Part shown: in pieces, positions 21,935-22,159 of the stretch
Layout: every line of letters begins with the position of its first letter
Numbering within the stretch: the first letter of the stretch is position 1
NCBI RefSeq assembly: GCF_003334785.1
Contig: NZ_QOWV01000002.1
Direction: 5' to 3' (one strand)
Length of the DNA: 64,000 nucleotides
From: Escherichia coli
GTDB lineage: Bacteria > Pseudomonadota > Gammaproteobacteria > Enterobacterales > Enterobacteriaceae
Made by a program: the position numbers and the translations under genes
The notes under the pieces: generated by a model
What the model saw: the letters and a program-made list of their open reading frames with translations, nothing else
Told to the model about the DNA's origin: nothing
Database searches by the model: none

Positions 21935-21965
21935 TCACGTTGTCGCCGTTATGGCGACAACGTGA
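21935..21965 (+). terminator. perfect 13-bp stem-loop downstream of lepB (probable terminator/processing hairpin)
   Basis: TCACGTTGTCGCC-GTTAT-GGCGACAACGTGA; the following tract is AT-rich but not a clean U-run. Confidence 0.55.
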
Positions 21966-22065
21966 ATTATTTATGAGATAAATCTCCCGTGGCTAACGAC
22001 ATCCCCCGTCGTTGTGTATAGAATATTCCCCCGAAGTTTAAGGTTGGCACCTCCAGGTTGCCACG

Positions 22066-22159
22066 GCACACGAAACAGCGTTGGTCCCCATATACCGGTA
22101 AACTGAAACTGCAGCGAAGCAGTTAGCAGAACCATGTATATCAGGTCTGTTTCGTGTGC
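22066..22159 (+). promoter_or_regulatory. rnc leader long-range stem (candidate RNase III autoregulatory site)
   Basis: GCACACGAAACAG (22066-22078) pairs perfectly with CTGTTTCGTGTGC (22147-22159), enclosing about 68 nt just upstream of the rnc start. Confidence 0.6.

What the first reader, a model, noticed from the sequence alone, without database searches (positions are those of the whole stretch)
21935..22159. Structured rnc leader: perfect 13-bp hairpin plus a 13-bp long-range pairing
Downstream of lepB there is a perfect hairpin (21935-21965), then a long-range helix in which GCACACGAAACAG (22066-22078) pairs with CTGTTTCGTGTGC (22147-22159). This fits the double-stranded site through which RNase III autoregulates its own mRNA.
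Basis: partly seen in the sequence, partly recalled or inferred. Interest (0 to 1): 0.3.

Follow-up and report, generated by a model that had tools for sequence, protein, structure and literature searches.

The report
lepB terminator plus known rncO leader
The two hairpins are real but are separate, already known E. coli K-12 features: the first ends the lepA-lepB transcript, and the second is the base of rncO, the stem-loop through which RNase III cuts and destabilises its own mRNA.

Summary
Both structures exist as described, and the window is identical to E. coli K-12 MG1655 here.

- **Long-range helix.** The 13-bp pairing (22066-78/22147-59) extends to 15 bp and forms the base of stem II of rncO. 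The Rfam rncO model (RF00552) matches 22033-22247 at 258.8 bits against a threshold of 43.
- **First hairpin.** The hairpin at 21934-21966 is not in the rnc leader. It lies 67 nt upstream of the mapped rnc transcription start (22033) and upstream of the promoter. It is the intrinsic terminator of the lepA-lepB operon.
  - The hairpin folds at -26 kcal/mol and is followed by UUAUUU.
  - Published transcript ends map to 21972.
  - 12 of its 14 pairs show compensatory changes across 70 Enterobacteriaceae.
  - About 17% of transcripts read through it.
- **Extra observations.**
  - A published processing-type RNA 3' end lies at 22072, inside the flagged helix.
  - The upper part of stem II is missing in many genera, while the 15-bp base helix is almost invariant.

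Verdict: ordinary and already known.

The parts
20947..21921 (+). lepB coding sequence (signal peptidase I), last gene of the lepA-lepB operon
   Evidence: ORF list. The window is identical to MG1655, where this stretch is annotated lepB b2568.
21934..21974 (+). Intrinsic terminator of the lepA-lepB operon: a 14-bp perfect stem (21934-47/21953-66), a 5-nt loop and the U-tract UUAUUUAU. The published transcript end is at 21972.
   Evidence: Terminator scan. Fold of -26.2 kcal/mol, z = -8.6. SMRT-Cappable-seq termination site at 2704284 for the b2569|b2568 transcript. 12 of 14 pairs have compensatory changes and 90.5% of cells are paired across 70 species, followed by an invariant AATTATTT.
21993..22032 (+). 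rnc promoter: -35 ACGACA at 21996-22001, -10 TAGAAT at 22019-22024, and a C-rich discriminator. The block is invariant across genera and contains the palindrome AACGAC/GTCGTT (21995-22000/22008-22013).
   Evidence: Promoter scan. Invariant columns in alignment A1. The TSS maps immediately downstream.
22033..22247 (+). rncO, the RNase III autoregulatory leader ('operator'). It covers the first 215 nt of the rnc transcript and runs into the first 55 nt of the rnc coding sequence.
   Evidence: Rfam RF00552, 258.8 bits against a gathering score of 43, E = 2e-61, model positions 1-214. The TSS at MG1655 2704223 equals window 22033.
22045..22063 (+). rncO stem-loop I (7 pairs)
   Evidence: Rfam consensus structure mapped onto the window. 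4 of 7 pairs have compensatory changes.
22064..22161 (+). rncO stem-loop II, the long irregular hairpin that RNase III cleaves.
   Evidence: Rfam structure. The MFE and centroid folds reproduce it. The base helix is 98.7% paired across 70 species, with 10 of 15 pairs invariant and one compensatory C-G/A-U switch, 42 to 25.
22072..22072 (+). Abundant RNA 3' end inside the 5' arm of the stem II base helix (GCACACG|AAACAG). It is probably the upstream product of RNase III cleavage, or an end trimmed back from it.
   Evidence: Term-seq 3' end at MG1655 2704184(-), 121 nt before the rnc ATG, about 48,000 reads, Rho score 0.93 (not Rho-dependent), intrinsic-terminator score 1.32, below the 3.0 cut-off. 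Assigning it to RNase III is an inference.
22162..22192 (+). Unpaired linker between stem II and the rnc start codon. It is nearly invariant and contains the translation initiation region.
   Evidence: Rfam structure and alignment A1. Conservation of 22167-22188 was partly forced by the search pattern. The stretch 22155-22230 folds no better than shuffles, z = 0.29.
22193..22873 (+). rnc coding sequence (RNase III, 226 aa). It overlaps the era start by 4 nt.
   Evidence: ORF list and MG1655 annotation b2567.
22213..22232 (+). rncO stem-loop III (8 pairs), inside rnc codons 7-14
   Evidence: Rfam structure. It is 98.8% paired but has no covariation, and the sequence is also constrained by coding.

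Best explanation
The interval holds two independent, known E. coli K-12 signals lying side by side.

(1) Twelve nucleotides after the lepB stop codon, a 14-bp G+C-rich hairpin followed by UUAUUU acts as the Rho-independent terminator of the lepA-lepB transcript. Most transcripts end at or just past 21972, and a minority read through.

(2) A sigma-70 promoter (-35 at 21996, -10 at 22019) starts the rnc-era-recO transcript at 22033. Its first 215 nt are rncO: a 12-nt single-stranded 5' end, stem-loop I, the long stem-loop II closed by the 15-bp helix 22064-78/22147-61, an unpaired linker, and stem-loop III inside the coding region.

RNase III binds and cuts the double-stranded stem II. This removes the protective 5' structure and leaves a monophosphorylated, unstructured 5' end, which RNase E attacks. 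The rnc-era mRNA therefore decays faster when free RNase III is abundant, giving negative feedback.

Shown here: the sequence identity, the family membership, the structures, the covariation, and the positions of the TSS, the termination site and the 3' end taken from published maps. Taken from the literature: RNase III dependence and the decay pathway. Inferred: that the cut lies within the conserved base helix near 22072, with a partner cut near 22154/22155.
For: - The window is identical to MG1655 over 21900-22260 and over the first 5 kb of lepA-recO, and the stretch is present in 5426 of 5426 complete E. coli genomes.
- Rfam rncO matches 22033-22247 at 258.8 bits, full length.
- Thermodynamic folds reproduce the terminator hairpin, stem I, stem II and, in the centroid fold, stem III.
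- SMRT-Cappable-seq (PMC6131387) places the rnc TSS at 2704223 = 22033. It places the lepA-lepB termination site at 2704284 = 21972: 66 reads end there, 71 end within 50 bp downstream, and 28 pass through.
- The terminator scan finds the hairpin and T-tract, and the hairpin folds at -26.2 kcal/mol, z = -8.6.
- Across 70 Enterobacteriaceae sequences, 12 of 14 terminator pairs carry compensatory changes. The stem II base helix is 98.7% paired with one compensatory switch. Overall 90.1% of cells are paired, against 35-43% when partners are slid by 1-3 columns.
- rncO is found in 18 of 18 tested genera at 159-231 bits.
- A Term-seq processing-type 3' end lies at 22072 inside the helix, with the same profile as the known RNase III site in the pnp leader in the same table.
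- The mechanism is stated in PMC3867540, PMC5371410, PMC8708148 and PMC10582724, all citing Bardwell 1989 and/or Matsunaga 1996.
Against: - Nothing contradicts the assignment.
- The primary papers (Bardwell 1989; Matsunaga 1996) and the table of mapped rnc cleavage sites (Altuvia 2018, Table S2) were not held, so the exact cut positions are not verified.
- The 3' end at 22072 lies 9 nt past stem I. It could be an exonuclease stall after a cut further downstream rather than the cut itself.
- The Term-seq study (PMC7815308) lists no lepB-associated 3' end, so the terminator's in vivo support comes from a single dataset, which labels it 'novelTTS'.
- The stem II base helix is conserved mainly in sequence, with only one covarying pair, so covariation support for that helix on its own is thin.
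Confidence: 0.95

Rival explanations
1. One reading: the hairpin at 21935-21965 and the long-range helix both belong to one structured rnc leader, and both contribute to RNase III autoregulation.
For: A read-through lepA-lepB-rnc transcript variant exists. About 28 of 165 transcripts that reach the terminator pass it, so a minority of RNAs carry both structures.
Against: The rnc TSS is at 22033, 67 nt downstream of the hairpin, and the conserved promoter lies between the two. The Rfam rncO model starts at 22033 and does not include the hairpin. The hairpin carries a U-tract, and transcript ends map in it. Its sequence is replaced wholesale between genera, as expected for a terminator. The RNase III-targeted helix, by contrast, is invariant in sequence.
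Confidence: 0.04
2. The long-range helix acts as a transcription attenuator or premature terminator in the rnc leader, rather than as, or in addition to, an RNase III site. The 3' end at 22072 would then be a termination product.
For: An abundant 3' end lies in the 5' UTR, 121 nt before the start codon. The source paper emphasises premature termination in 5' UTRs.
Against: The 3' end lies in the 5' arm of the helix, before the 3' arm has been transcribed, so the hairpin cannot have caused it. No U-tract follows stem II. The intrinsic-terminator score is 1.32, below the 3.0 cut-off, and the Rho score is 0.93, listed as 'No'.
Confidence: 0.03
3. A rival about one detail only: RNase III cuts in the upper, irregular part of stem II (about 22085-22140), and the 22072 end arises from 3' exonuclease trimming back to about 9 nt past stem-loop I.
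For: The end at 22072 is 9 nt downstream of stem I (22045-22063). By established knowledge this is a typical stall distance for RNase II and PNPase. The exact published cut sites could not be retrieved.
Against: The upper stem is absent in most genera that still keep rncO at 159-187 bits. A cut there would leave the -29 kcal/mol base helix intact, which conflicts with the 'unstructured 5' end' described in PMC3867540. The invariant part is the base helix.
Confidence: 0.3

Closest known systems
rncO (Rfam RF00552), the RNase III autoregulatory leader of the E. coli rnc-era-recO operon (Bardwell et al. 1989; Matsunaga et al. 1996)
   Same: It is this element.
   Different: Nothing differs in the window. 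Across genera, the upper two-thirds of stem II is dispensable or replaced.
Rho-independent (intrinsic) terminators of enterobacterial operons
   Same: A G+C-rich perfect hairpin, a 5-nt loop and a U-rich tract 12 nt after the stop codon of the last gene. Transcript ends fall in the U-tract, and the stem is maintained by compensatory changes.
   Different: The U-tract is interrupted (UUAUUUAU) and termination is incomplete, with roughly 17% read-through. The dataset that mapped it labels it 'novelTTS' with no nearest known terminator.
pnp leader RNase III site (rpsO-pnp intergenic hairpin), the other classic RNase III-initiated mRNA decay switch in E. coli
   Same: A long irregular hairpin in a 5' leader is cut by RNase III, which triggers decay of the downstream message. 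In the same Term-seq table it also shows a strong processing-type 3' end about 120 nt upstream of the ORF.
   Different: The sequence and family differ. The pnp system additionally needs PNPase to remove the cleaved duplex, and it regulates a different enzyme.

Membership tests
rncO (Rfam RF00552) | Match to the curated covariance model at or above its gathering score | tested here: met
   258.8 bits against 43, E = 2e-61, model positions 1-214 of 214, window 22033-22247 on the + strand.
rncO (Rfam RF00552) | Sits at the 5' end of the rnc transcript, from the transcription start into the first codons of rnc | tested here: met
The rnc ATG is at 22193.
rncO (Rfam RF00552) | Three stem-loops (I, II, III), with a long irregular stem II | tested here: met
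   The Rfam alignment has no non-canonical pairs flagged. The MFE and centroid folds reproduce stems I, II and III. 90.1% of cells are paired across 70 species, against 35-43% in the slid controls.
rncO (Rfam RF00552) | RNase III-dependent cleavage within stem II | not testable with these tools
   Reported for this exact sequence in the literature. A processing-type 3' end at 22072 inside stem II is consistent with it. No comparison with an rnc mutant could be retrieved.
rncO (Rfam RF00552) | Cleavage lowers the stability and expression of rnc-era mRNA (negative autoregulation) | not testable with these tools
   Literature only: PMC3867540, PMC10582724 and PMC8708148.
Intrinsic (Rho-independent) terminator | A stable G+C-rich hairpin immediately followed by a U-rich tract, downstream of a stop codon | tested here: met
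   The stem at 21933-21967 is followed by TATTTATGAG. The fold is -26.2 kcal/mol, z = -8.6. The lepB stop codon ends at 21921.
Intrinsic (Rho-independent) terminator | Transcript 3' ends map in the U-tract | tested here: met
   The published SMRT-Cappable-seq termination site at 2704284 equals window 21972, the last U of UUAUUU. 66 reads end there and 28 pass through. The site is not listed in the Term-seq tables of PMC7815308.
Intrinsic (Rho-independent) terminator | Pairing, not sequence, is conserved among relatives | tested here: met
   12 of 14 pairs carry changes on both sides, 90.5% of cells are paired, and AATTATTT after the stem is invariant.
Intrinsic (Rho-independent) terminator | Termination is independent of Rho | not tested
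   No bicyclomycin or in vitro data were retrieved for this site.
   The hairpin ends at 21966. The promoter hexamers are at 21996-22024 and the TSS is at 22033.

The most novel reading that the evidence does not exclude
The functional, conserved core of rncO may not be the long E. coli stem II. It may instead be a compact hairpin of about 21 bp-equivalents: the sequence-invariant 15-bp base helix, a 2x2 internal loop, about 4 bp and a small loop. On this reading the 60-nt upper stem of Escherichia, Salmonella and Citrobacter, and the unrelated longer insert in Raoultella, are lineage-specific expansions. RNase III would cut within the invariant base helix near 22072/22155. The near-total sequence invariance, well beyond what pairing requires, would reflect sequence-specific recognition by RNase III or a second factor.
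Probability: 0.4. Interest if true: 0.25.

Novelty: already known. Interest (0 to 1): 0.07.

Why it matters
It matters little as a discovery. rncO has been a textbook case of RNase autoregulation since 1989-1996 and is a curated Rfam family, and the hairpin after lepB is an ordinary terminator. The value of the check is in annotation. It separates two adjacent signals that a sequence-only reading merged into one 'leader', and it places the promoter and TSS between them. That could guide anyone designing minimal RNase III-responsive leaders.

Tried and rejected
- **Primary papers and cleavage table.** I tried to read Matsunaga 1996 (PMC1369450), Bardwell 1989 (PMC401487) and the Court 2013 review (PMC6311387) for exact cut sites, but none is held. 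The Altuvia 2018 supplement that lists the known and detected rnc cleavage sites is not held either.
- **Other datasets.** The Gordon 2017 supplements have no rnc-leader entry. Romero 2014 does not discuss rnc. No supplements are held for PMC9023263 or PMC4161252.
- **Minus-strand Rfam hit.** The weak rncO hit on the minus strand (23.9 bits, below the gathering score) was rejected as an artefact of the symmetry of a long hairpin.
- **mir-2001 hit.** The hit on the terminator hairpin (20.1 bits against a gathering score of 74) was rejected as a generic hairpin match.
- **Minus-strand ORFs.** The ORFs at 21971-22249 (92 aa) and 22038-22175 (45 aa) were treated as mechanical. Nothing is annotated there in MG1655.
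- **Stray pattern matches.** The Bacteroides and Balneolaceae MAG matches (L036, L060) were excluded as chance hits, because their flanks are unrelated at 0.34 ungapped identity.
- **Attenuator reading.** An attenuator role for stem II was rejected because of where the 3' end lies and because of its terminator scores.

Full report
**What is in the sequence.**
The region reads lepA (19132-20931), lepB (20947-21921), a 271-nt intergenic gap, rnc (22193-22873), era (22870-23775) and recO (23787-24515). The stretch 21900-22260 and the first 5 kb of the lepA-recO block are identical to E. coli K-12 MG1655. A 321-nt query spanning the gap is found in 5426 of 5426 complete E. coli genomes. MG1655 minus-strand coordinates convert as 2726256 minus the window position.

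**Checking the observation.**
Both inverted repeats are real.
- **First repeat.** It is a perfect 14-bp stem (21934-47/21953-66) with a 5-nt loop, at -26.2 kcal/mol and z = -8.6.
- **Second repeat.** It is the stated 13-bp pairing (22066-78/22147-59), extended to 15 bp by a G-U and a C-G pair.
- **Rarity.** Only three perfect inverted repeats of at least 13 bp within 120 nt exist in the 64-kb window, and two of them are these. Shuffled sequence gives about 0.1 seeds per window, against 10 observed.

**The long-range helix is rncO stem II.**
- **Family match.** Rfam RF00552 (rncO) matches 22033-22247 over its whole length at 258.8 bits, against a gathering score of 43.
- **Structure.** In the family consensus, 12 unpaired nucleotides are followed by stem I (22045-63). 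Free-energy folding recovers the same helices.
- **Start of the transcript.** A published full-length primary-transcript map puts the rnc TSS at 2704223, which is window 22033 and the first position of the model. It follows a promoter-like site with -35 ACGACA at 21996 and -10 TAGAAT at 22019-24.
- **Mechanism.** Reviews state it as follows. RNase III cleaves this irregular hairpin in its own 5' UTR. That creates an unstructured monophosphorylated 5' end recognised by RNase E, so the rnc-era mRNA decays.

**The first hairpin is the lepA-lepB terminator, not part of the leader.**
- **Position.** It ends 67 nt upstream of the rnc TSS and upstream of the promoter.
- **Form.** It begins 12 nt after the lepB stop codon and is followed by UUAUUUAU. 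A consensus scan calls it terminator-like.
- **In vivo ends.** SMRT-Cappable-seq data list a transcript from the lepA TSS (2707209) ending at 2704284, which is window 21972, the last U of UUAUUU. 66 reads end there, 71 end within 50 bp downstream and 28 pass through. A lepA-lepB-rnc read-through variant is also listed.
- **One gap.** The Term-seq tables of another study do not list this end.

**Comparative evidence.**
A DNA-pattern scan of one genome per species returned 75 loci. Of these, 69 usable Enterobacteriaceae sequences were aligned with the window.
- **Terminator stem.** It is replaced wholesale between genera but stays paired. 12 of 14 pairs have changes on both sides and 90.5% of cells are paired. 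The AATTATTT after the stem is invariant.
- **Whole structure.** 90.1% of cells are paired, against 35-43% when partners are slid by 1-3 columns.
- **Stem II base helix.** It behaves differently. It is 98.7% paired, but 10 of 15 pairs never vary and only one pair switches, C-G in 42 sequences and A-U in 25. It is therefore conserved in sequence as well as in structure.
- **Upper stem II.** The part at about 22085-22140 is absent in Enterobacter, Kosakonia, the Klebsiella oxytoca group, Superficieibacter, Pseudocitrobacter and others. In Raoultella a longer, unrelated insert replaces it.
- **Family membership of the variants.** All 18 representative loci still match rncO at 159-231 bits. The short forms fold into the 15-bp helix, a 2x2 internal loop and about 4 bp, at -21 to -31 kcal/mol.

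**Where the cut probably is.**
- **The observed end.** Term-seq data list a strong 3' end at 2704184, which is window 22072, 121 nt before the ATG. It has about 48,000 reads, a Rho score of 0.93 and an intrinsic-terminator score of 1.32. It is therefore a processing end, like the known RNase III site of the pnp leader in the same table. It lies in the 5' arm of the flagged helix.
- **Inferred partner cut.** With RNase III's 2-nt 3' overhang, the partner cut would fall between 22154 and 22155, leaving a 5' end 38 nt before the ATG. That segment has no structure beyond chance, z = 0.29, which fits the published 'unstructured 5' end'.
- **Caveat.** This is an inference. The end is also 9 nt past stem I, a plausible exonuclease stall point. 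The primary cleavage maps could not be retrieved.

**Verdict.**
Everything here is already known, so interest is low. The only mildly new points are comparative:
- the compact, sequence-invariant core of stem II;
- the lineage-specific upper stem;
- an invariant promoter block that contains a palindrome.

Noticed in passing
window 21993-22036: The rnc promoter block CTAACGACATCCCnnGTCGTTGyGTATAGAATATTCCCCCGAAGT is almost invariant across 70 Enterobacteriaceae, including its spacer. It contains the 6-bp palindrome AACGAC/GTCGTT (21995-22000/22008-22013) and a C-rich discriminator. This is more conservation than the -35 and -10 hexamers alone would need, so it may be a protein-binding site or reflect growth-rate control.
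   Followed up: no
window 22085-22140 (upper part of rncO stem II); loci L004, L008, L027, L003, L011, L021, L037, L046: The upper two-thirds of stem II is missing in many genera (Enterobacter, Kosakonia, the Klebsiella oxytoca group, Superficieibacter, Pseudocitrobacter). In Raoultella and one Enterobacter sp. a longer, unrelated insert replaces it. All of these still match Rfam rncO at 159-187 bits.
   Followed up: partly
window 22072 (MG1655 2704184, minus strand): A published Term-seq 3' end with about 48,000 reads lies inside the 5' arm of the stem II base helix. It is neither Rho-dependent nor intrinsic-terminator-like. The source tables classify it only as 'orphan' and list no characterized regulatory element for it.
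   Followed up: partly
window 22448 (MG1655 2703808, minus strand), inside rnc: The same Term-seq table lists a strong 3' end (about 59,000 reads) inside the rnc coding sequence, in a G+C-rich stretch (…GGAACTGGCGC). Its origin is unknown.
   Followed up: no
window 21972-22081: About 17% of lepA-lepB transcripts read through the terminator, with a median read-through of 109 nt. These transcripts therefore end near 22081, close to the stem II processing end. This suggests that read-through RNAs are also cut at rncO.
   Followed up: no
window 22162-22192: The unpaired linker between stem II and the rnc ATG (TGAATTGTTGACGCATTTATTTATTGGTATCGC) is nearly invariant and has no clear Shine-Dalgarno sequence. 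Part of this conservation (22167-22188) was forced by the search pattern used to collect the loci.
   Followed up: no
window 25656-25706 and 25660-25736 (minus strand): The only other perfect long inverted repeat in the window (19 bp) lies just downstream of acpS and falls within the Rfam OhsC sRNA match (RF02495, 106.8 bits), the antitoxin of the shoB-ohsC type I system.
   Followed up: yes
window 18419-19250 (minus strand): Rfam AsrC, an antisense RNA to rseC mRNA (RF02746, 507 bits), overlaps rseC and the start of lepA. The model was built on Salmonella, and it also matches in the related loci L002, L044, L045 and L062.
   Followed up: no
window 69-184, 11910-11952, 34916-35063, 63735-63806: Other Rfam matches in the window are 5S rRNA, ES036 (CssrF), GlmY and naRNA4 (CssrE). 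All are known K-12 features.
   Followed up: no
loci L036 (Bacteroides MAG) and L060 (Balneolaceae MAG): The 20-specified-base search pattern matched exactly in two non-enterobacterial MAG contigs whose flanks are unrelated to the rnc region. These are probably chance matches in a 298-Gb collection.
   Followed up: partly
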